Counted from the stretch's first letter, positions 6,105-23,825 are shown. The stretch: DNA of 24,000 nt from Carnobacterium gallinarum DSM 4847 (GCF_000744375.1 NZ_JQLU01000005.1:2069496-2093495), one strand, 5' to 3'. The notes: a model not told the origin generated them from the letters alone. A program made the numbers and translations.

Positions 6105-6146
6105 CAAAAAAGGCAACCTTATCAACTATAAGGTTGCCTTTTTTTC
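6105..6146 (+). terminator. Rho-independent terminator after folT
   Basis: Stem AAGGCAACCTT (6110-6120) / AAGGTTGCCTT (6130-6140) followed by a T run to 6146. Confidence 0.85.
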
Positions 6147-6162
6147 GTTTAAAATGAATTTG

Positions 6163-6195
6163 GTATATACAAACTAGTATATACTATTGTATAAT
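6163..6195 (+). promoter_or_regulatory. Candidate promoter and HutC/GntR operator of the glycosylasparaginase-PTS unit
   Basis: Two copies of the 8-bp palindrome GTATATAC (6163-6170 and 6177-6184) lie just upstream of a TATAAT box (6190-6195). The first sits in TTGGTATATACAAA, which resembles the GT-N-TA-N-AC cores of HutC-type operators. The direct repeat AATGAATTTGG (6153-6163 and 6193-6203) brackets the region. Confidence 0.4.
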
Positions 6196-6210
6196 GAATT
6201 TGGATTCTTT

Positions 6211-6225
6211 AAGAAAGCGTTTTAA
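6211..6225 (+). promoter_or_regulatory. Weak candidate cre (CcpA) site
   Basis: AAGAAAGCGTTTTAA compared with the cre consensus WTGNAANCGNWNNCW gives 2 mismatches. It lies downstream of the putative -10. Confidence 0.25.
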
Positions 6226-6258
6226 TATAAACTTGAATTTAAAAATGGAGGTAAAAAA

Positions 6259-7212
6259 ATGACCTATGGAATGATTGCAACTTGGCGAATGGCCTATGAT
6301 GGTGTGGCAGAAATGACTAAGGAGTTGCAAAAGGGAAAAGATGCAGGAGATGCTTTAGTAGAGGCAATTAAACAAGTTGAGGATTATCCTTTTTATAAGT
6401 CAGTAGGTTATGGTGGATTGCCGAATGAGCATTGTATTTTAGAAATGGATGCAGCGTATATGGATGGAAATACTTTCGATATTGGGGCTGTTGCAGGCAT
6501 TCAAGATGTGAAAAATCCGATTGCTGTGGCTCAATCTTTGAGCCATGAACGGTTTAATTCATTTTTAGTAGGTTCCGGTGCAACCAAGTATGCCAAAAAT
6601 GCTGGATTTGAGTGTCAAAATATGCTGACAGAACGCGCAAAACGCTTATGGGAGCTACGAATGGAAGAGATTCAAAAGCATAACCTAAGTCCTTACGATG
6701 GACATGATACGATTGGTGCAGTTTCCTTAGATATTCACAAAAAAATGGTAGCAGGAACATCCAGTAGTGGTTTATTCATGAAAAAAAGTGGGCGGGTTGG
6801 AGATTCCCCCCTATCTGGTTCAGGATTTTATGTTGATAGTGAGATAGGCGGAGCAACGGCAACAGGCTTAGGTGAAGACTTAATGAAAGGCTGCTTAAGT
6901 TACGAGATTGTCCGTTTGATGGGAACAGGGCTGCATCCACAACAAGCTGCGGATCAGGCTGTCTATCAATTTGCTGAAAAATTAACAAAACGTAAGGGGA
7001 AAGCTGGTGCTTTTTCATTAGTTTGTATGAATAAATCAGGTGAATGGGGTGTTGCTACAAACGTAGAATTTTCATTTGTTGTAGCAACAGAACATGAAGC
7101 AGCCGAGATTTATTTGGCATATCCTGCAGAAAATCAAACAACAAGAATTGAGATTGCCTCAAAAGAATGGTTGGCAGCCTATGAAACTCGAATAAAAAAA
7201 CCACTTGATTAG
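6259..7212 (+). CDS. Cytoplasmic Ntn-hydrolase of the glycosylasparaginase / isoaspartyl-peptidase family (N4-(beta-N-acetylglucosaminyl)-L-asparaginase-like)
   Basis: 317 aa. Autoprocessing site HD-TIGAV (Thr151 codon 6709-6711), GRVGDSPLSGSGFY and GATATGLGEDLM motifs. No signal peptide. RBS GGAGG 6247-6251. Confidence 0.8.
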   Translation: MTYGMIATWRMAYDGVAEMTKELQKGKDAGDALVEAIKQVEDYPFYKSVGYGGLPNEHCILEMDAAYMDGNTFDIGAVAGIQDVKNPIAVAQSLSHERFNSFLVGSGATKYAKNAGFECQNMLTERAKRLWELRMEEIQKHNLSPYDGHDTIGAVSLDIHKKMVAGTSSSGLFMKKSGRVGDSPLSGSGFYVDSEIGGATATGLGEDLMKGCLSYEIVRLMGTGLHPQQAADQAVYQFAEKLTKRKGKAGAFSLVCMNKSGEWGVATNVEFSFVVATEHEAAEIYLAYPAENQTTRIEIASKEWLAAYETRIKKPLD

Positions 7213-15510: not shown

Positions 15511-15588
15511 ACTTAATTTCTGTAGCAATCAAGAGTATGTTCTAAAACAATCAGCATACTCTTGACGGGAATCAAAGGAGGTAAGCTA

Positions 15589-17070
15589 TTGTTTGATGAC
15601 AGTGAAATAATTGAAATTAAAATTTTGCAAATTTTGGACACAGAAGAAAAATGGTGGCAAAGTCTTGAAATTGCCAAACTACTTAATCAGTCAAAATCAA
15701 CGACTCAAAAATATTTAAAGTTATTAAAGGAAAAAATTTCAACCTTTGATAAAGAGTTAGTAGATATAGAAATAAGTAGTAGCCGAGGAATCTTTTTTAC
15801 ACGAGCGCCATCATTTAATTTACAGTTTCTATATACTGAAATACTCAAAGAGCTCCTATTATATTCGGTTGTTGAAAGTTTTATTTATGATGGAGCATTA
15901 TCAATCACCCAATTTTCAATGGTTCATTATGTCAGTGTTACATCAATAAGAAGAAAATATACAATCATTCAAGATTATTTAGAAAAATTAGAACTAACAA
16001 TAAAAAAAGATCAACTTATTGGGGAAGAAAAGCAAATTAGATGGTTCTTAACTCATTTCTTTTGGGAAGTCTACCAAAGTTCAGAGTGGCCCTTTTCCAC
16101 TATTTCAAAAAATGAGCTAACTACAATTGTCAGAGATATTGAAGACAAGTTCAGTTTGCAATTAATTCCTGAAATGAGAGAACAATTACTTTATTGGTTA
16201 GCAGTGAATATCATTCGTACGAATAAAGGGTATAAGTTGCCAATTGATGAAGAAATTGATCTATATTTAAAAGATCATCCTGTTTTTTTTGAGTTTAGGG
16301 GAGTAATTAGAGCGAAATTTTATAATCCGATTCGGTCGGAAAAAGAATTTTTGGGGAATGTAGGTGAAGTGCAACATCTCTTTTTTCTATGCACGATTTT
16401 CCCAGTTTTAGAAGGGGAGGAAACTCTAAGCACAATTAACTATCAAATGCATAAAAATAAACAGACACAAATGTATGCTGCAACTCAAAGGTGGATCACT
16501 ATGTATGAAGAGTTATTTGATTCAATTGATGGTGATTTAAAGAAGAATCAAATCGAAAAAAAATTACTACGAATCCATAGTTATTCTTATTTATATAAAA
16601 TGGGCGATGATCTTTTTCATACTCACGATTATATCGATGATCTTTTTGTGAAATATCCGAATTATTCTAAAAAAATGAATCAATTATATCAACAAATACA
16701 ACCTTCAAATGAACTGGTTTTAAAAAATCAACAGTATCTAATGAAAGCATATATGTTACTTTGTTATGAAGAATTTGAGATGATAAACTATGAAAAAAAT
16801 ATTCTGATTTGTCTAAGTATTGGTGATGGAAGTACGTATGAAGGGATTATGAAAAATGAACTTAAAACCAAATTTCAAGATAACTATAATTTAAAATTTA
16901 TTTCTCAAAAAGAAAGTGCGGATATTTGGATTACGAATTTACCAATAACCAATCCTGATGATTCAAAGTATCAAGTGAGTGTAAATAACTATTTTACTAA
17001 AAGAGATTATAAGTATATTGAAAATTTCTTTATTGAAATTATTGGGAAAGCGTCTATAGCTGATAACTAG
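15589..17070 (+). CDS. Mga/AtxA-like (PRD-containing virulence regulator type) transcriptional activator
   Basis: The N-terminal EIKILQILDTEEKWWQSLEIAKLLNQSKSTTQKYLKLLKEKI is an Mga-type HTH pattern. It has a long helical middle and a C-terminal ILICLSIGDGSTYEG... segment resembling the EIIB-like end of this family. TTG 15589 lies 7 nt after AGGAGG (15576-15581); the track start is 15562. Confidence 0.55.
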   Translation: MFDDSEIIEIKILQILDTEEKWWQSLEIAKLLNQSKSTTQKYLKLLKEKISTFDKELVDIEISSSRGIFFTRAPSFNLQFLYTEILKELLLYSVVESFIYDGALSITQFSMVHYVSVTSIRRKYTIIQDYLEKLELTIKKDQLIGEEKQIRWFLTHFFWEVYQSSEWPFSTISKNELTTIVRDIEDKFSLQLIPEMREQLLYWLAVNIIRTNKGYKLPIDEEIDLYLKDHPVFFEFRGVIRAKFYNPIRSEKEFLGNVGEVQHLFFLCTIFPVLEGEETLSTINYQMHKNKQTQMYAATQRWITMYEELFDSIDGDLKKNQIEKKLLRIHSYSYLYKMGDDLFHTHDYIDDLFVKYPNYSKKMNQLYQQIQPSNELVLKNQQYLMKAYMLLCYEEFEMINYEKNILICLSIGDGSTYEGIMKNELKTKFQDNYNLKFISQKESADIWITNLPITNPDDSKYQVSVNNYFTKRDYKYIENFFIEIIGKASIADN

Positions 17071-17350: not shown

Positions 17351-18661
17351 ATGTTTACTTTGCCAGATTTATTATTTAAAGGAGTGTCAATGGTTATTTT
17401 AATTACATCAATCATGGTGTTTTTTCATTTAGGTTTTTATACCTTATTAGCGCTAATAGGATTAAAAAAGCCGAAAAGAACATATGAGATAAAGTCAGAT
17501 AAAAATAAGTTTTTATTTATTGTCCCGGCCCATAATGAGGAAAAAGTGATTCAAAATTGTTTAGAGAGTATTTCACGCTTAGACTATGATGCTCAATTAG
17601 TGAATGCAGTTATTTTAGCAGATCACTGTGAGGATAGGACAGCTGAAATTGCACGTTCTATAAATAACTATACGGTATATGAGAATACCTATGCTGAGGG
17701 AGATGTAAGAGGAAAGCCTCACGTTATTGGAAAATATTTGAAGGAACATAGAGACATATGGTTAAAGTATGATTTTATCGTGTTTTTAGATGCAGATAAC
17801 TTAGTTTCATCAAATTATTTAAAAGAAATAAATTCCCAGTCTATTGCTCAACCTGAATATATGGTGATTCAAGGTTATTTAGATAGTAAAAATATCGGTG
17901 AATCAATGCTGTCTAGAGGATATGCGGCGGCGTACTTTATTACAAATCGAGCAATTCAATATTCAAAGCATTTACTTGGTTGGAATGCCTCTATCGGTGG
18001 TACGGGGTTTGCGCTTAGAACAGATTATATTGAGCAATATGGCTGGAATCCTAAAAGTTATACGGAAGATTTTGAGATTCAAGTTGAATTATCAATTGAA
18101 GGGAAAAAAAGCACGTGGAATCATTTTGCAAAAGTTTATGATGAAAAACCAAATACTTTAGTTGTAAGCCATGTTCAGCGGACTAGATGGTCACAAGGAC
18201 ATTGGCATATTGCATTTACAAAAACTGGCAAGCAACTACTCTCATTAGTGAAACCACAAGGAATTGTCAGTTGGAGCAATCGCTTAGAAACGCTTATTTA
18301 TTCTTATTCGATGTTCAGATCAGTCTGGCTCTTGTTTTTATTTATGCTAGTAGCTATTGATGTTAGACTTATTTCTCAACTTCCCTATTTCTTTTCATTT
18401 TTCTGGTTTTGGTTAATATTTGAAACAATCAATTATATTGTGATTCCATTTACTTACATCATTCAAGAAGGGAAAGAATACATGGGAAATTTTAATACAT
18501 CCAAAAAGATTTCAGAATTTTTTCTACTGTGGGTTGGTTATTTTTATTCAACAGCAGTGTATTACTTTGCTCAAATAAAAGGGTTCTTTACTTGGTTTTT
18601 ACCGCAAAATCATTGGCAAAAGACCGAGCATACAAGTCAAGTTAGTTCGGATGATTTATAA
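17351..18661 (+). CDS. Membrane-embedded processive family-2 glycosyltransferase (polysaccharide synthase type)
   Basis: 436 aa from ATG 17351 (RBS AAGGAG 17335-17340). N-terminal TM, then IVPAHNEE, DAD (17789-17797), TED (18062-18070) and QRTRW (18176-18190). At least 3 C-terminal TM helices follow. Confidence 0.8.
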   Translation: MFTLPDLLFKGVSMVILITSIMVFFHLGFYTLLALIGLKKPKRTYEIKSDKNKFLFIVPAHNEEKVIQNCLESISRLDYDAQLVNAVILADHCEDRTAEIARSINNYTVYENTYAEGDVRGKPHVIGKYLKEHRDIWLKYDFIVFLDADNLVSSNYLKEINSQSIAQPEYMVIQGYLDSKNIGESMLSRGYAAAYFITNRAIQYSKHLLGWNASIGGTGFALRTDYIEQYGWNPKSYTEDFEIQVELSIEGKKSTWNHFAKVYDEKPNTLVVSHVQRTRWSQGHWHIAFTKTGKQLLSLVKPQGIVSWSNRLETLIYSYSMFRSVWLLFLFMLVAIDVRLISQLPYFFSFFWFWLIFETINYIVIPFTYIIQEGKEYMGNFNTSKKISEFFLLWVGYFYSTAVYYFAQIKGFFTWFLPQNHWQKTEHTSQVSSDDL

Positions 18662-18694
18662 AATCCTAGAAAAGTAAGGATAGAAAGGACACTT

Positions 18695-19810
18695 ATGAAA
18701 AAATTCACAGTTATGGTTGTGATTGGAGATGATCAGGAGGCCTTAAAAATGGCTCCAATTATTGACAAGCTAAAGAGAGAGTTTGAAAAATTTAAAGTAA
18801 GCATTGTAAGTACAGCAAGTAATAAACCAGCAGTCAAAAAAATCCTAGGGCTGTATCATGTAAAAACGAATATCGATTTGAATGTTAGAAAAAGAAATCA
18901 ACAATTAAATGAATATATAGTGGCTGTGACTGCAGGAATTACAAAGGCCATTCATCATGAAAAACCTGATTTAGTCTTAGTTCATGGAGATTCTACAACT
19001 AGTCTAGGAGCTTCTTTATCGGCTTTTTATCAAAAAATTAGTGTTGGACAGATAGATGCTGGTCTACGCTATGGCAATAAATATAGTTCGTTTCCAGCTG
19101 AAATGAATCGACGTTTGACAAGTGTAATTGCTGATTTTCATTTTGTTTCTACAAATTCAGCAAAAGCCAATTTAATAAAAGAAGGCATTCAAGAAAATCA
19201 TATTTTTATGACAGGAAATACGGTTATCGAAACGTTGCCCAAAACAGTAAAAGAAAAATTTATCTACAATGAAATTTCAATTCATAGCGACAATAGTCTA
19301 ATTTTACTGTCTCTTGATCAACTAGAGGAAATCAATCCAAAATTAGAGGAACTGTATGCAGCTATTAAACAAGTAGTCGCAAAAAATAGCAAAGTGGAAA
19401 TTATTTATCCACTGCATTTAAATCCAGTGCTGCGAAATCATGCGATTGATACTCTATCAACTATAGAAAGAATTCATCTAGTAGAGCCTTTAGATGTTGG
19501 CAAGTATCACAATTTAATCAATCAAGCCCAATTAGTGCTAACAGATACTAGCAGTATGTATGAAGTTGCTACCAGTTTAAAAACGCCTTTATTGATTATG
19601 GCGGCTGACATAGATCATCCTGAAATAATTCATACAGGCGTTGGCAAATTAATTGAGATGAATTCGGTGACAATTACAGAGGAAGTTATGAAATTAATGA
19701 CAGATACTTTTTATTATGATTCTATGCTTTTAAATGAGGAAGTCTTTACGAATGGACTTGAAAGTGCGAGTGAAAAAATTGTGGAAGTAATAAAAAAACA
19801 AATTAGATAA
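18695..19810 (+). CDS. UDP-N-acetylglucosamine 2-epimerase (WecB/MnaA)-like protein with degenerate catalytic motifs
   Basis: 371 aa, colinear with MnaA/WecB (HGDSTT, AGLR, NR, HLNP and LTD blocks kept). GTRPE, GHVE, HRREN and DSGG-QEE blocks are replaced (see findings). Confidence 0.65.
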   Translation: MKKFTVMVVIGDDQEALKMAPIIDKLKREFEKFKVSIVSTASNKPAVKKILGLYHVKTNIDLNVRKRNQQLNEYIVAVTAGITKAIHHEKPDLVLVHGDSTTSLGASLSAFYQKISVGQIDAGLRYGNKYSSFPAEMNRRLTSVIADFHFVSTNSAKANLIKEGIQENHIFMTGNTVIETLPKTVKEKFIYNEISIHSDNSLILLSLDQLEEINPKLEELYAAIKQVVAKNSKVEIIYPLHLNPVLRNHAIDTLSTIERIHLVEPLDVGKYHNLINQAQLVLTDTSSMYEVATSLKTPLLIMAADIDHPEIIHTGVGKLIEMNSVTITEEVMKLMTDTFYYDSMLLNEEVFTNGLESASEKIVEVIKKQIR

Positions 19811-19830: not shown

Positions 19831-19986
19831 ATGCAATATTCAAATGAAAAAATTGGAATCGAACTAAAAAGCAATACACAGAATCAGATTAAGCAGAAAA
19901 AAGGTCAATTAGCGGTAGTTAATGCTCTATTTTTACTGGCTTTTGTTTCAGTAGTCAGTACATTTATCTATTTGGCCTTTTTTTAA
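19831..19986 (+). CDS. Small tail-anchored membrane protein, 51 aa (not in the ORF track)
   Basis: ATG 19831 ... TAA 19984-19986. Sequence MQYSNEKIGIELKSNTQNQIKQKKGQLAVVNALFLLAFVSVVSTFIYLAFF has a polar basic N-half and one C-terminal TM. It starts 20 nt after the epimerase-like stop. Confidence 0.4.
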   Translation: MQYSNEKIGIELKSNTQNQIKQKKGQLAVVNALFLLAFVSVVSTFIYLAFF

Positions 19987-20050: not shown

Positions 20051-20728
20051 ATGAGAATAAAGAACCATAATTTTGCCAATGTGTATAGATTCTTATTTTT
20101 GCTAGTTTGTGGCTATGGACTGTATCTAAATTCTGGACTAGTAAATGGAAAATTAGAGCTAGGTTATCTATGGTTTTATACAATTTTAAGTAATCTTGTT
20201 TGTTTTATCTATTATTTTTATTTAGAAATACAGTCCATTCGAGGGTTTCCTTATCAAGAGACTTCAAGAATGAAGGGTGCTATAACAATGTGTATTACTG
20301 TGACACTGGTTGTCTATCATTTTTTACTAGTACCAAATGCTTTTGAAATGAACCCAGAATATACAATTTTTAGTTTGGGAAATCTGATTGTTCATTATAT
20401 TGTTCCTATATTGGTACTTTTGGATTGGTTACTCTTTGATAAAAAAGGCGTAGGTAAAGTGAACGATCCGATTCTATGGTTACTGTTGCCATTTAGTTAT
20501 TTTTTAGCTGTATTTATGCGAGCTTTGATTTTAAAAACACCTTTAGTTGGTAAAAGTTTATATCCTTATTATTTTATGGATAGTCAACAAATTGGAACAG
20601 CTGGGGTCGCAATCACAATCATTTTTTTAGTACTGTTATTTTTATGTATTGGGTATTGTATTTTTGGAGTGGATTTAGTTCTTTCAAAAAGAGAAATTCT
20701 AAAAAAGGGTAAGTTTTTTATTGATTGA
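20051..20728 (+). CDS. Six-TM membrane protein, probably Pr6Pr / FAR-17a/AIG1-like family
   Basis: 225 aa. FYTILSNLVCF and LIVHYIVPILVLLDWLLF resemble the conserved SN and H..P...DW blocks I associate with this family. RBS AAGGAGGA. Confidence 0.5.
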   Translation: MRIKNHNFANVYRFLFLLVCGYGLYLNSGLVNGKLELGYLWFYTILSNLVCFIYYFYLEIQSIRGFPYQETSRMKGAITMCITVTLVVYHFLLVPNAFEMNPEYTIFSLGNLIVHYIVPILVLLDWLLFDKKGVGKVNDPILWLLLPFSYFLAVFMRALILKTPLVGKSLYPYYFMDSQQIGTAGVAITIIFLVLLFLCIGYCIFGVDLVLSKREILKKGKFFID

Positions 20729-20931: not shown

Positions 20932-21071
20932 TGCCACTAGTTACTAGTTTCCATTTTGAATTTTACTAATTCAGCTTTTAAGTCAACTTGACCTGAAATT
21001 TGGTCATAAATAAGGTGGATTTGACAGTATACTAGATTTTGACTAACAAAAAAATTAGAAGGAGCGAAAAA

Positions 21072-23825
21072 ATGAAAAAACAGAAACAGTCATATACAAA
21101 GATTATGAGTTCACTATTAGTAGCAAGTATTTTAGCAGCACCGGTATTGGAGTTAACCAATCCGTTAAAAACGGTATTTGCAGAAACAACGGAGCTGGTA
21201 GAAGAAAAAACAGAAACAGATGAAACAGAAGCAGAAAGTCAGGAAGAATCCGAGGAATCTACTCCAATTGAAGCAGAACAAGAGGAGGAGAATCCTGCCG
21301 AAATATCAGTTGAACCAGAGGCTGTAGATGTAGAAACATCCTCAAATCCAGTTAAAGCAGCCACTGTTGGAACAAAAGCGGATACAGATCTGATTACAGC
21401 GGCTGATTTAGGGAATGAACAATGGTTGATTGATAACGTGCAAAGCCAAACAAGAAAAAAAGTTGGCGTTGATCTAACTTTTGGTGATTTAAAAACAATC
21501 ACTGATATTAAACTTGAAAGAAGAGATGTAGTTGGAAGTATTCCTACAGAAATAGAGAATTTAAGTAACTTAGTGAACTTGAATTTGAACTCGAACGAAG
21601 TGAGTGGAAGTATCCCTGAAGGCATAGGGAATTTAAGCAAATTAACAACTTTAAATTTGGAGAATAATAAATTAAGTGGGAATATTCCTGAGATTCTAGG
21701 GAATTTAAGTAATTTAACAATCTTGAATTTGTATAATAATCAACTTGATGGAAACATTCCTGATATTCTGGCGAATTTAAGTAACTTAACCAACTTAGAT
21801 TTGAGGGGCAATCAACTGAGTGGAGACATTCCTAAAAGTCTCGGAAATTTAAGTAACTTAACGAACTTGAATTTGGGTGGTAATGAATTAAGTGGAAGCA
21901 TTCCTGAGGAACTGGGGAACTTAAGTAACTTAACGATCTTGAATTTATATTTTAACCAATTGAGTGGAAATATCCCTGAAAGTCTAGCCAATTTAAGTAA
22001 CTTAAAGACCTTGAGTTTTAATACAAACCAATTGAGTGGAAATGTCCCTGAAAGTCTAGCCAATTTAAGTAACTTAACAAGTTTAGATTTGAGGACAAAT
22101 AAACTGAGTGGAAGCATTCCTGAGAGTTTAGGGAATTTAACTAACTTAGTAGGCTTATATTTGAGTCACAATCAACTGAGTGGAAGTATTCCCGATAGTC
22201 TAGGTAATTTAAGTAATTTAAGTGGATTTAGTGTATATGGTAACCAATTGAGTGGAACCATTCCTGAAAGTCTAGGAAATTTAAGTAACTTAAAGAGTTT
22301 AGATATAGGTCGTAATCAATTAAGTGGAACTATTCCATCGAGTCTAGGAAATCTAAATAACTTAGATAGTTTTTTTTTCAGTTATAATAAATTGATTGGC
22401 ATCATTCCAGAAAATCTTAAATCAATGGAGAAGATTTCTAATAGCGCTGCTTATGATAATCAAGTAACAAGCAATTCAAATGGTCCATTTGATTTTGATA
22501 ATGGGAAAAATCTTCATTCACTTGGTACATTTATTAATGCTGAAGGTTCCAAATTACAATTGAACTCAAATTCAATTCTCTATTTAAATCCCAAAATGGC
22601 TGATTTAAAACCATTCGATAGTGAAAGCGATAGTTATTTCAATATTGGATTATCAAATGGGGAAGAGCTATTTGAAGGCCATATCTATACAATTAAAGAC
22701 AAAGCAACAGGCGAAGTCAAGTATAGTGGTGAGGCAGATGATTCTGTTGTTTTACCAAATCCAGGTAAGGCCACAACGTATCAAATTATTCTAGATGAAG
22801 CAGATAAAAATCCAAATAATATAACAGAAACTAGAGTAACAGTACAGGGGCCAGTAAAAGTAGAATACAAATCAGAAGCAGGGACTGAGATAGCTCCTAT
22901 TCAACTATTAGAAGGCGAAATTGGGACGCCCTATACAACCAGTGCGCTAGATATCGAAGGGTGGATTTTAAAAGAAACTCCGGCAAATGCGAACGGAACG
23001 TATACAGCTACCGAACAAACGGTGACTTATATTTATCAAGCAATACCAACTCCTTATAATACATTCACGAATGGCTACTGGAGAGATTATGGGTTTATTC
23101 TTGAAGGACGTGCTGGAATTGACACAGAGAAATTTAGCGCCGAAGATTCAGTCACGAAAAAAGTAGAAATGTTAGATAATACTGGAACTATTGTGAAAAC
23201 ATGGGATGCACAAAATACAAACTGGTATGACGCGACTACCTACGATGGCTATCAAGTGATTTTAACAACTGCTGATATGGCGACGTTAGCTGCTGGAAAT
23301 TACACATTCCAAGTAGAAGTGACTTTAAAGAATGGTGACAAATATGTTGAAGCTATTCAAGAAGGAAGTTCAGCCTTGGGATTTATTGGTGAAGAAAGTC
23401 AAACGATTGCTGGTTTAGAAAATGGTATAGCTAACTCAAATGAGGTTGCTTTTAGTACAAATGGTCGCAATGTGATGCAAATGAATATAGCTTCCTCGAC
23501 TGCAGCATTTAATAAAATTACCCAATATACAAGTGAGGCAGGAACGACCATCATTGATGGCTGGGTTGCAGAAACCAGCTTTAACTTTGCCGATACCCAT
23601 ACAAAAGAACTTGTGATTGAGAATGCTGAAGGAACAGAAGTCTATCGTGAGATAGCTCCTACATGGGATATTACAGAAACATTTGGTATTACAGTCAACG
23701 ATGAATGGAAACGTGCAGGATTCCAAGCCGATATTCCACAATTACATGATGTAAGTGAAAATAAAGCGTATATCGTAGTAAAAAATGAAGATGGAACAGA
23801 TATTAGTAAAACACAAATTAAATAA
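21072..23825 (+). CDS. Secreted leucine-rich-repeat protein (plant-specific-type LRRs plus MucBP domain), no recognisable anchor
   Basis: 917 aa from ATG 21072 (RBS AAGGAG). Signal peptide MKKQKQSYTKIMSSLLVASILAAPVL...VFA-ETT, then an acidic E/T-rich linker. Twelve 24-aa LxxLxxLxLxxNxLSGxIPxxLGN repeats follow, then a MucBP-like segment (VKVEYKSEAGTEIAP...TVTYIYQ). The last approx. 260 aa are uncharacterised. No LPXTG, C-terminal TM, LysM, GW or WxL domain was recognised. Confidence 0.8.
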   Translation: MKKQKQSYTKIMSSLLVASILAAPVLELTNPLKTVFAETTELVEEKTETDETEAESQEESEESTPIEAEQEEENPAEISVEPEAVDVETSSNPVKAATVGTKADTDLITAADLGNEQWLIDNVQSQTRKKVGVDLTFGDLKTITDIKLERRDVVGSIPTEIENLSNLVNLNLNSNEVSGSIPEGIGNLSKLTTLNLENNKLSGNIPEILGNLSNLTILNLYNNQLDGNIPDILANLSNLTNLDLRGNQLSGDIPKSLGNLSNLTNLNLGGNELSGSIPEELGNLSNLTILNLYFNQLSGNIPESLANLSNLKTLSFNTNQLSGNVPESLANLSNLTSLDLRTNKLSGSIPESLGNLTNLVGLYLSHNQLSGSIPDSLGNLSNLSGFSVYGNQLSGTIPESLGNLSNLKSLDIGRNQLSGTIPSSLGNLNNLDSFFFSYNKLIGIIPENLKSMEKISNSAAYDNQVTSNSNGPFDFDNGKNLHSLGTFINAEGSKLQLNSNSILYLNPKMADLKPFDSESDSYFNIGLSNGEELFEGHIYTIKDKATGEVKYSGEADDSVVLPNPGKATTYQIILDEADKNPNNITETRVTVQGPVKVEYKSEAGTEIAPIQLLEGEIGTPYTTSALDIEGWILKETPANANGTYTATEQTVTYIYQAIPTPYNTFTNGYWRDYGFILEGRAGIDTEKFSAEDSVTKKVEMLDNTGTIVKTWDAQNTNWYDATTYDGYQVILTTADMATLAAGNYTFQVEVTLKNGDKYVEAIQEGSSALGFIGEESQTIAGLENGIANSNEVAFSTNGRNVMQMNIASSTAAFNKITQYTSEAGTTIIDGWVAETSFNFADTHTKELVIENAEGTEVYREIAPTWDITETFGITVNDEWKRAGFQADIPQLHDVSENKAYIVVKNEDGTDISKTQIK
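21552..22415 (+). repeat. 12 tandem 72-bp coding repeats (LRR units)
   Basis: The AATTTAAGTAAC core recurs at 21558, 21630, 21702 ... with an exact 72-nt period. Long stretches are identical between units (e.g. GGGAATTTAAGTAACTTAAC, CAATTGAGTGGAA). Confidence 0.9.

What the first reader, a model, noticed from the sequence alone, without database searches (positions are those of the whole stretch)
18695..19810. WecB/MnaA-like protein in which most catalytic and UDP-sugar-binding motifs are substituted (possible pseudo-enzyme)
The protein is colinear with non-hydrolysing UDP-GlcNAc 2-epimerases but differs at hallmark blocks, compared from memory with B. subtilis MnaA and E. coli WecB.
- GTRPE becomes GDDQE (res 11-15).
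- GHVEAGLR becomes GQIDAGLR (118-125).
- FPEE-NR becomes FPAEMNR (133-139).
- T-HRREN becomes SLDQLEE (205-212). This block holds the essential His213 of WecB.
- TDSGG-QEEA becomes TDTSSMYEVA (283-292).
- R-TTERPE becomes AADIDHPE (303-310).
- HGD(T/S)TT and HLNP are retained.

This pattern suggests loss of, or change in, epimerase chemistry. The protein could instead be a structural or regulatory partner of the adjacent synthase, or act on a different nucleotide sugar.
Basis: partly seen in the sequence, partly recalled or inferred. Interest (0 to 1): 0.65.

Follow-up and report, generated by a model that had tools for sequence, protein, structure and literature searches.

The report
Catalytically dead MnaA epimerase paralog
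A gene that databases would label as a normal UDP-GlcNAc 2-epimerase has lost most of the residues that bind its substrate and do the chemistry, yet it is kept as an intact, well-folded protein next to a surface-glycan synthase, so it is most likely a non-catalytic "pseudo-enzyme".

Summary
ORF 18695-19810 (+, 371 aa) is a full-length, confidently folded MnaA/WecB homolog (wecB model 294 bits against a cut-off of 210; AF2 pLDDT 89; TM 0.85-0.91 to solved MnaA). Ten of the 15 published substrate-binding, catalytic and allosteric residues are replaced: R13D, E135A, H208D, E291V, R209Q, Q42S, H43N, Q45P, and the milder E121D and S285T. It also differs at 44 of 95 columns that are invariant in 23 canonical relatives.

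The genome has a normal mnaA elsewhere. The variant is a singleton: its nearest relative among 15 billion proteins is 39% identical. In related "Mga-type regulator, GT2 synthase, epimerase" cassettes the epimerase is nearly always canonical.

Neutral decay cannot explain the intact frame (0 of 300 simulations stayed open). The scaffold scores 5 SD above neutral expectation, while the cleft columns look unconstrained. A separate Enterococcus clade of degenerate cassette epimerases has dN/dS 0.22-0.29.

Best reading: it is dead as a UDP-GlcNAc 2-epimerase and retained for a non-catalytic role in the synthase cassette. The partner is unknown and no experiment has been done. Unverified notes from this scan report similar degenerate WecB-fold proteins in other genomes.

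The parts
18695..19810 (+). Degenerate MnaA/WecB paralog (371 aa), the candidate pseudo-epimerase
   Evidence: PF02350 5e-68; TIGR00236 294 bits against a cut-off of 210. AF2 pLDDT 89.3, pTM 0.87. Foldseek TM 0.85-0.91 to 3BEO, 3OT5 and 5ENZ. 10 of 15 functional residues replaced.
18683..18689 (+). Shine-Dalgarno-like GAAAGGA, 5 nt before the ATG
   Evidence: Read directly from the sequence.
17351..18661 (+). Membrane-embedded processive-type GT2 synthase. The likely start is 17351, because homologs are about 436 aa.
   Evidence: Pfam Glyco_tranf_2_3 and Glyco_trans_2_3. Family-invariant DAD, TED and QRxRW motifs. 48-73% identical homologs in Enterococcus, Brochothrix, Lactococcus, Carnobacterium and Bacillus.
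15562..17070 (+). AcpB/EbpR/MafR (Mga-type) transcriptional regulator
   Evidence: NF053736 175 bits against a cut-off of 130; Pfam Mga HTH. An Mga-family gene lies next to the GT2 in nearly all related loci.
19831..19986 (+). 51-aa single-pass membrane protein, a conserved cassette member
   Evidence: 48% identical over its TM half to the 50-aa ORF that follows the GT2 in L057.
20051..20728 (+). Pr6Pr-family membrane protein
   Evidence: NF038065 82 bits. A 33%-identical homolog sits in the L057 cassette.
21039..23825 (+). Secreted LRR/MucBP protein whose C-terminal ~270-aa domain (23004-23822) travels with this GT2 family
   Evidence: Pfam LRR and MucBP, with no hit for the C-terminus. The C-terminal domain is found in 19 of 29 GT2 loci. 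No terminator-like site between 17127 and about 23009.

Best explanation
The gene encodes a paralog of the non-hydrolysing UDP-GlcNAc 2-epimerase MnaA. It has lost the ability to bind UDP-sugar and to catalyse epimerisation, but it is still made and kept as a folded GT-B protein, which makes it a pseudo-enzyme.

It descends from the epimerase that normally accompanies a single-polypeptide GT2 surface-glycan synthase in a cassette found in Lactobacillales: Mga-type regulator, GT2, small TM protein, Pr6Pr, epimerase. In that cassette the epimerase presumably supplies UDP-ManNAc. In this genome the housekeeping mnaA can supply that precursor, so the cassette copy was released from catalytic constraint.

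Shown here:
- The substitutions.
- The intact fold (a prediction).
- The canonical paralog elsewhere in the genome.
- Canonical epimerases in sister cassettes.
- Constraint on the scaffold without constraint on the cleft.

Inferred:
- The protein is inactive as an epimerase (probability about 0.9).
- It persists because it has a non-catalytic job in the cassette (about 0.55-0.6). Candidate jobs are a structural or regulatory subunit of the synthase complex, or a 'prozyme'-like partner that heterodimerises with the active MnaA.

The partner is not identified.
For: 1. Residue map. PaMnaA numbering coincides with this protein's numbering (PMC11464976 Table 4).
- Substrate-binding residues R13, K18, E135, R139, H208, S285, E291 read D, K, A, R, D, T, V here.
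- Catalytic residues D99, E121, E135, H208 read D, D, A, D.
- Allosteric residues Q42, H43, Q45, Q69, R209, H241 read S, N, P, Q, Q, H.
- E135A alone left PaMnaA without measurable kinetics.
- The equivalents of R13, H208 and S285 bind the uracil and alpha-phosphate, E291 binds the ribose, and R209 binds the beta-phosphate (PMC4793188).

2. Family and fold are intact.

3. A canonical mnaA scoring 514 bits lies at G000:C5:109854-110945.

4. Related cassettes carry canonical epimerases: G002, L028, L034, L035, L036, L038, L041-L048, L053 and L057.

5. The branch is very long: terminal branch 8.1 against a median of 0.23. At GT2 identity of 62-65%, canonical epimerase pairs keep 49-53% identity, whereas this one is at 36-37%.

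6. Neutral decay does not explain it. None of 300 neutral simulations kept the frame open, with a mean of 15 stops at 40% identity and 7.9 stops at 69%.

7. Its score against a canonical HMM is 355 bits, against 302 +/- 10 for stop-free neutral simulations at the same identity. Yet it retains 51 invariant columns against 54 +/- 3.5 in the simulations. The scaffold is constrained and the cleft is not.

8. There is a parallel case. Degenerate cassette epimerases in E. termitis and Enterococcus sp. AZ192 (L037, L055, L054) sit in a conserved syntenic locus and have dN/dS of 0.29 and 0.22. The neighbouring GT2 has 0.04 and canonical epimerases have 0.04-0.10. Their old active-site residues differ from one another.

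9. The gene is embedded in an apparent operon with a ribosome-binding site and no internal terminator.
Against:
- No clear ortholog exists, so selection on this gene itself cannot be measured cleanly. The only candidate relative is a partial degenerate copy in L056, 29% identical. For that pair dN is 0.79, against 0.19 for the adjacent GT2. Using the GT2's dS of 1.9, omega is roughly 0.4, but dS is saturated. Constraint is therefore weak.
- Nothing shows that canonical MnaA, let alone this protein, physically contacts the GT2.
- D99, K18, R139, E136, H241, E290 and D284 are retained, so a remodelled but functional pocket is not excluded.
- Sequence-based 'dead enzyme' calls have been wrong before.
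Confidence: 0.55

Rival explanations
1. It is a re-tooled enzyme. The GT-B cleft has been rebuilt to act on something that is not a UDP-sugar, such as a free or polymer-bound amino sugar, with carboxylates replacing the phosphate-binding Arg and His residues.
For: - The replacements are not random junk. Several basic phosphate ligands became acidic or polar (R13D, H208D, T305D, R308H, plus D12), while D99, R139, K18, E136, H241 and E290 are kept.
- There is a precedent in another family: GH130 phosphorylases became hydrolases when basic phosphate-binding residues were replaced by carboxylates (PMC4599007, abstract seen).
- The ORF and the fold are maintained.
Against: - Retention of invariant cleft columns is no better than neutral drift predicts (51 against 54 +/- 3.5).
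- In the parallel Enterococcus clade the former active-site residues are not conserved between members: W/K at position 13, A/E at 99, D/G at 121 and S/D at 208. That is the opposite of what a new catalytic site predicts.
- No orthologs conserve the new residues.
Confidence: 0.15
2. It is a functionless relic. The cassette epimerase became redundant with the housekeeping mnaA and is simply decaying, and the frame is open by luck or through weak selection against polar effects on downstream genes.
For: - A canonical mnaA makes it redundant.
- The rate is extremely high and the cleft has completely lost constraint.
- It is a singleton with no conserved orthologs.
- Omega against the only candidate relative is high, about 0.4 or more.
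- Other cassettes do without any epimerase (L025, L027, L030, L032).
Against: - None of 300 neutral simulations kept the frame open, even at modest divergence.
- There are no indels that disrupt colinearity over 371 aa.
- The HMM score is 5 SD above neutral expectation.
- The fold prediction is confident.
- Intact degenerate copies persist in at least three further genomes with dN/dS well below 1.
Confidence: 0.2
3. It is still a working UDP-GlcNAc 2-epimerase that uses unusual residues.
For: It scores above the curated wecB equivalog cut-off, keeps D99, K18 and R139, and has conservative changes at E121D and S285T.
Against: - E135A abolished measurable activity in PaMnaA.
- R13, H208, R209 and E291, which are the uracil, phosphate and ribose ligands, are all replaced. 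Two are replaced by Asp, which should repel the diphosphate.
- Four of the six allosteric-site residues are gone.
- 381 of 385 homologs tolerate at most 2 such changes.
Confidence: 0.05

Closest known systems
Non-hydrolysing UDP-GlcNAc 2-epimerase MnaA/WecB (EC 5.1.3.14). Solved examples: B. anthracis 3BEO, L. monocytogenes 3OT5, B. subtilis 4FKZ, S. aureus 5ENZ, P. alvei 9CM8, E. coli 1F6D.
   Same: Same sequence family and length. Colinear over 365+ residues at 33-39% identity. Same predicted two-Rossmann GT-B fold.
   Different: Lacks 10 of the 15 residues defined for substrate binding, catalysis and allosteric activation, and 44 of 95 family-invariant columns. It is an extra copy beside a normal mnaA.
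E. coli NfrB (GT2 synthase) and WecB pathway for the N4 receptor glycan NGR (PMC8669472, PMC8669469).
   Same: A processive-type GT2 synthase depends on a UDP-GlcNAc 2-epimerase for a ManNAc-based surface polymer. This is the logic inferred here for the canonical versions of the cassette.
   Different: In NfrB/WecB the epimerase must be catalytically active (the K15A variant fails to complement), it is encoded elsewhere, and control is by c-di-GMP. Here the linked epimerase is degenerate and the regulator is Mga-type.
Non-catalytic GT-B-fold partners of active glycosyltransferases, such as GtfB with GtfA in serine-rich-repeat adhesin glycosylation, and 'prozyme' paralogs that activate their catalytic sibling, such as trypanosomatid AdoMetDC prozyme. 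These are cited from my own knowledge and were not checked here.
   Same: A paralog with the enzyme's fold but without its catalytic residues, encoded beside the machinery it serves.
   Different: No interaction has been shown here, and no such role has been described for an Epimerase_2 protein. No paper in the searchable library combines 'pseudoenzyme' with this enzyme's name.
Degenerate cassette epimerases of Enterococcus termitis LMG 8895 and Enterococcus sp. AZ192 (L037, L055, L054; P0242, P0243). The databases annotate them as ordinary non-hydrolysing epimerases.
   Same: Same type of cassette (Mga-type regulator, GT2, epimerase homolog, membrane protein), the same kind of loss (8-10 of 15 residues), and an intact ORF.
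   Different: Only 26-31% identical to the window's protein. They nest in a different clade of cassette epimerases, sit beside a different GT2 subclade and are followed by a DUF998-like rather than a Pr6Pr protein. They are therefore an independent origin.

Membership tests
Non-hydrolysing UDP-GlcNAc 2-epimerase (WecB/MnaA; TIGR00236, PF02350) | Full-length match to the family model above the curated cut-off | tested here: met
   TIGR00236 294.4 bits against a cut-off of 210.15, covering model positions 2-364 of 366. PF02350 229.9 bits.
Non-hydrolysing UDP-GlcNAc 2-epimerase (WecB/MnaA; TIGR00236, PF02350) | Two-domain GT-B (double Rossmann) fold | tested here: met
   AF2 pLDDT 89.3, pTM 0.87. 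Foldseek E 1e-38 and TM 0.85-0.91 to 3BEO, 3OT5, 4FKZ and 5ENZ. This is a prediction, not a solved structure.
Non-hydrolysing UDP-GlcNAc 2-epimerase (WecB/MnaA; TIGR00236, PF02350) | Catalytic set Asp99, Glu121, Glu135, His208 (PaMnaA numbering; E. coli D95, E117, E131, H213) | tested here: not met
   The protein reads D99, D121, A135, D208. E135A abolishes measurable activity in PaMnaA (PMC11464976).
Non-hydrolysing UDP-GlcNAc 2-epimerase (WecB/MnaA; TIGR00236, PF02350) | UDP-sugar binding residues Arg13, Lys18, Glu135, Arg139, His208, Ser285, Glu291 | tested here: not met
   The protein reads D13, K18, A135, R139, D208, T285, V291, and the SGG loop has become TSS. The roles of these residues are described in PMC4793188.
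Non-hydrolysing UDP-GlcNAc 2-epimerase (WecB/MnaA; TIGR00236, PF02350) | Allosteric UDP-GlcNAc site Gln42, His43, Gln45, Gln69, Arg209, His241 | tested here: not met
   The protein reads S42, N43, P45, Q69, Q209, H241, so 4 of 6 are replaced.
Non-hydrolysing UDP-GlcNAc 2-epimerase (WecB/MnaA; TIGR00236, PF02350) | [quoted passage not shown] | not testable with these tools
   This needs a biochemical assay.
Pseudo-enzyme (a catalytically dead homolog kept by selection) | Key catalytic or binding residues are missing in an otherwise intact family member | tested here: met
   10 of 15 functional residues and 44 of 95 invariant columns are changed, while fold and colinearity are intact.
Pseudo-enzyme (a catalytically dead homolog kept by selection) | Maintained by purifying selection | tested here: inconclusive
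   In favour: 0 of 300 neutral simulations keep the ORF open; the HMM score is 5 SD above neutral; the parallel Enterococcus clade has omega 0.22-0.29. Not decisive: there is no clean ortholog of this gene, and the pair with the L056 partial copy gives omega of about 0.4 with saturated dS.
Pseudo-enzyme (a catalytically dead homolog kept by selection) | Expressed, with a demonstrable non-catalytic function | not testable with these tools
Only a ribosome-binding site and operon context are available.
Synthase-dependent glycan cassette (processive GT2 plus a precursor-forming enzyme) | GT2 with the D, DxD, TED and Q(R/Q)xRW signature and multiple TM segments | tested here: met
   DAD, TED and QRTRW are invariant across 30 family members. 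Pfam GT2 families match. There is weak sequence similarity to BcsA.
Synthase-dependent glycan cassette (processive GT2 plus a precursor-forming enzyme) | A catalytically competent nucleotide-sugar enzyme is encoded with the synthase | tested here: not met
   This feature is met in most related loci, which carry a canonical epimerase, but not in this window, where the linked copy is degenerate.

The most novel reading that the evidence does not exclude
MnaA-derived pseudo-epimerases may be a recurrently evolved, non-catalytic subunit of a previously undescribed surface-display module of Lactobacillales. The module would consist of an Mga-type regulator, a single-polypeptide GT2 synthase, a small TM protein, a membrane protein, and a secreted protein with a dedicated ~270-aa C-terminal domain. 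The dead epimerase might dock on the synthase, or heterodimerise with the housekeeping MnaA as a 'prozyme', to gate or channel the UDP-ManNAc supply. Alternatively it might bind the nascent polymer through its newly acidic cleft.
Probability: 0.25. Interest if true: 0.7.

Novelty: new variant of a known kind. Interest (0 to 1): 0.52.

Why it matters
1. Annotation. This protein passes the curated 'equivalog' threshold for wecB, so pipelines will call it an active UDP-GlcNAc 2-epimerase. The Enterococcus relatives are already labelled that way. Metabolic reconstructions would therefore credit these loci with an activity they almost certainly lack.

2. Biology. Pseudo-enzymes are well documented in eukaryotic signalling but are rarely shown in bacterial glycan pathways. 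At least two independent degenerate lineages sit in the same type of cassette. Together they offer a tractable system to ask what a dead nucleotide-sugar enzyme does beside a synthase.

3. The cassette itself appears to be uncharacterised. It consists of the GT2, a small TM protein, Pr6Pr, an epimerase, and a secreted protein with a conserved C-terminal domain, all under an Mga-type regulator. It may be a way for Lactobacillales to display proteins on the cell surface.

Tried and rejected
- Mapping the substitutions in 3D: the model's coordinates are not exposed to scripts, so I used published contact lists instead.
- Velloso 2008 (PMC2246411) and Hurlburt 2020 (PMC7605110) are not held. Mann 2016 gave no UDP contact list.
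- An order-wide scan with TIGR00236 to obtain the low-score tail of degenerate copies: the output lists only the top 150 matches, so the tail was not visible. I replaced it with a residue screen of 385 retrieved homologs.
- Looking for orthologs in 40 relatives, in 5.8 billion clustered proteins and by exhaustive HMMER over 1.84 billion representatives: nothing is closer than 39-40%.
- A shared downstream partner for the two degenerate lineages: Pr6Pr and the DUF998-like protein are unrelated.
- An epimerase or regulator remnant beside the genome's second GT2 paralog: none found.

Full report
**Observation.**
The ORF at 18695-19810 (+) is real. It is 371 aa long, starts 33 nt after the stop of the upstream GT2 gene and is preceded by GAAAGGA. 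It matches Pfam Epimerase_2 (5e-68) and the curated NCBIfam equivalog for wecB at 294 bits, above the 210-bit cut-off. HMMER aligns it end to end with solved MnaA enzymes at E 1e-77 to 1e-81. Two further blocks are also altered: the allosteric-site QHRxM is now SNKPA, and the C-terminal NPYGDG is now EVFTNG.

**What the substitutions hit.**
Table 4 of the P. alvei MnaA structure paper (PMC11464976) lists three sets of residues:
- Substrate-binding: R13, K18, E135, R139, H208, S285, E291.
- Catalytic: D99, E121, E135, H208.
- Allosteric: Q42, H43, Q45, Q69, R209, H241.

The numbering coincides with this protein's. The canonical C. gallinarum MnaA shows exactly those residue types at those columns. 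The variant instead reads D13, K18, A135, R139, D208, T285, V291; D99, D121; and S42, N43, P45, Q69, Q209, H241. Only 5 of the 15 residues are unchanged.

E135A alone left PaMnaA without measurable kinetics. The human GNE epimerase paper (PMC4793188) assigns roles to the equivalent residues:
- R13 stacks on the uracil and bonds the alpha-phosphate.
- H208 and S285 bind the alpha-phosphate.
- E291 binds the ribose hydroxyls.
- R209 binds the beta-phosphate.

In the variant two of these are Asp, one is Val and one is Gln. Loss of UDP binding, and with it loss of epimerase activity, is therefore the expected outcome. This is inferred from sequence, not measured.

**How unusual this is.**
Twenty-three canonical homologs, both housekeeping and cassette-linked, are 45-95% identical to one another and share 95 invariant columns. 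In a leave-one-out test each keeps 94-100% of them. The variant keeps 51. Among 385 homologs retrieved in three database searches, 381 have at most 2 of the 15 functional residues changed and the variant has 10 changed. In a maximum-likelihood tree its terminal branch is 8.1 changes per column, against a median of 0.23.

**Fold.**
An AlphaFold2 model built with 43 homologs is confident (pLDDT 89.3, pTM 0.87). It superposes on 3BEO, 3OT5, 4FKZ and 5ENZ with TM-scores of 0.85-0.91. The scaffold is predicted to be intact.

**Paralogy and uniqueness.**
The same genome carries a canonical mnaA scoring 514 bits, with every motif present and 35% identical to the variant. The variant has no close relative. 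The best hit among 5.8 billion clustered proteins is 39% identical. An exhaustive HMMER search of 1.84 billion representatives also finds nothing closer than 39%. No hit in 40 related genomes exceeds 40%. An earlier follow-up note of this scan (e1-2457477) names the organism Carnobacterium gallinarum.

**Context.**
The upstream GT2 (17351-18661) has the DAD, TED and QRxRW signature of processive synthases, invariant across 30 family members. It has 48-73% identical homologs in Enterococcus, Vagococcus, Lactococcus, Brochothrix, Carnobacterium, Bacillus, Clostridium and Listeria. These genes sit next to Mga-type regulators and large secreted proteins.

In most loci an epimerase gene is adjacent, and in all but a few it is fully canonical. 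One example is a same-genus genome with the identical order of regulator, GT2 and epimerase. The closest cassette with the same gene set is L057, whose GT2 is 69% identical. It has the GT2, a homolog of the 51-aa TM ORF, a Pr6Pr homolog and a canonical epimerase. The ancestral role of the cassette epimerase was therefore almost certainly to supply UDP-ManNAc to the synthase, as WecB does for the GT2 synthase NfrB in E. coli (PMC8669472). Other cassettes carry a sulfatase-fold protein instead, or no partner at all. The epimerase is thus dispensable when a housekeeping copy exists.

**Relic or retained?**
Three tests bear on this.
- *Neutral decay of the frame.* I applied neutral point-mutation decay to a canonical cassette epimerase. 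At the observed 40% identity it left an open frame in 0 of 300 runs, with a mean of 15 stops. At 69% identity it also left 0 of 300 open, with a mean of 7.9 stops. Indels were not even modelled.
- *Scaffold against cleft.* Against an HMM of the canonical set, the variant scores 355 bits. Stop-free neutral simulations at the same overall identity score 302 +/- 10. Yet the variant retains no more invariant columns than those simulations do (51 against 54 +/- 3.5). The scaffold is still constrained, while the conserved cleft evolves as if free.
- *Divergence at matched GT2 identity.* At GT2 identity of 62-65%, canonical epimerase pairs are 49-53% identical, and the variant is 36-37% identical to them.

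This combination is what a pseudo-enzyme predicts. It fits poorly with both a dying gene and a new catalytic site.

**Parallel cases.**
A degenerate epimerase also follows the GT2 in E. termitis (L037), in a 97%-identical relative (L055) and in Enterococcus sp. AZ192 (L054, 52% identical). All three sit in a conserved locus.
- They have 8-10 of the 15 residues changed, and they differ from one another at the old active site.
- They nest in a different clade of cassette epimerases.
- Their dN/dS is 0.29 and 0.22, against 0.04 for the adjacent GT2 and 0.04-0.10 for canonical cassette epimerases.
- Selection on them is relaxed but clearly purifying.

A partial degenerate epimerase also lies beside the GT2 most similar to the window's (73% identical; L056). 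It is 29% identical to the variant and shares 5 identical replacements among 16 co-changed invariant columns. That hints at a common degenerate ancestor. For this pair dN is 0.79, against 0.19 for the GT2. Synonymous sites are saturated, so omega of about 0.4 is only a rough figure.

**Mechanism.**
What the evidence shows directly is limited to these points:
- The cleft residues are lost.
- The fold is retained (a prediction).
- A canonical paralog exists.
- Sister cassettes have canonical epimerases.
- The scaffold is constrained.
- The gene sits in an operon-like unit with no terminator between 17127 and about 23009.

The rest is inference. The protein probably no longer binds UDP-sugar or epimerises it (about 0.9). 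It probably persists for a non-catalytic role in the cassette (about 0.55-0.6). I cannot tell which role. Candidates are a subunit or regulator of the synthase complex, a heterodimer partner of the active MnaA, or a binder of the polymer through the now acidic cleft. Rivals are a re-tooled enzyme (0.15), a functionless relic (0.2) and a still-active epimerase (0.05).

**Comparison with what is known.**
By sequence and fold it belongs to the WecB/MnaA family. It fails the family's functional definition on three tested counts: catalytic residues, UDP ligands and the allosteric site. It should therefore not be filed as a UDP-GlcNAc 2-epimerase. I found no paper describing a pseudo-enzyme of this family. 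The library is limited to open-access papers, so this is a weak negative. Unverified first-reader notes of this scan describe degenerate WecB-fold proteins in three other genomes. If they hold, such proteins are a recurring and overlooked theme.

**Verdict.**
This is a well-supported candidate pseudo-enzyme and a new variant of a well-known family. It has moderate interest because it recurs in one type of cassette and because curated models mis-annotate it. It remains a sequence-level inference, from a singleton gene, with no identified partner.

Noticed in passing
window 23004-23822; also L025 10959-11741, L028 69-845, L035 9782-10483, L037 6055-6858, L041/L042/L053 ~6126-6903, L054 3499-4299, and others: The C-terminal ~270 aa of the LRR/MucBP protein has no Pfam match and starts near 'GYWxDYG(L/F)xxEG'. 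It recurs at the C-terminus of large secreted proteins in 19 of 29 loci of this GT2 family, often ending 100-150 nt before the GT2 start. It may bind, or be anchored by, the polymer the GT2 makes; these proteins lack an LPXTG anchor.
   Followed up: partly
L037 9076-10197 (E. termitis LMG 8895); L055 7001-8122; L054 7001-8113 (Enterococcus sp. AZ192): An independent clade of intact but catalytically degenerate cassette epimerases (8-10 of 15 functional residues changed), with dN/dS 0.22-0.29. Databases annotate them as ordinary non-hydrolysing epimerases.
   Followed up: yes
L056 3-665 (metagenome contig SRR22022263_22798): A partial degenerate epimerase (YRLNK for HRREN, NVDP for HLNP, DSKSVHVEAT for DSGGVQEEAP) lies upstream of the GT2 that is closest to the window's (73%). 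It shares a few derived residues with the window's variant, so the two may have a common degenerate ancestor.
   Followed up: partly
G000:C5:2179887-2181206 (L025 5900-7255): A second GT2 paralog, 60% identical, lies about 93 kb away in the same genome. It is followed by a 1442-aa secreted protein with the same C-terminal domain, and has no epimerase or Mga-type regulator within the fetched 13 kb.
   Followed up: partly
L027 7333-9204; L030/L031 7334-9169: In some cassettes the GT2 is followed by a ~610-620-aa sulfatase-fold (PF00884) protein instead of an epimerase. This suggests polymer modification, in the manner of LtaS-like or BcsG-like enzymes, in those versions.
   Followed up: no
L030/L031 9317-10291 (Brochothrix thermosphacta): The epimerase homolog here is only 324 aa and lacks the N-terminal GTRPE and QHR region, while keeping all later motifs. 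It could be truncated, or it could have a missed start or a frameshift.
   Followed up: no
window 19831-19986: The 51-aa single-pass membrane ORF is conserved: it is 48% identical over its TM half to a 50-aa ORF at the same place in the L057 cassette. It is therefore a real gene and part of the cassette.
   Followed up: partly
P0485 (408 aa) and P0404 (384 aa), from the exhaustive HMMER search: These two further Epimerase_2 cluster representatives have 6 and 5 of the 15 functional residues changed. I did not look at their contexts.
   Followed up: no
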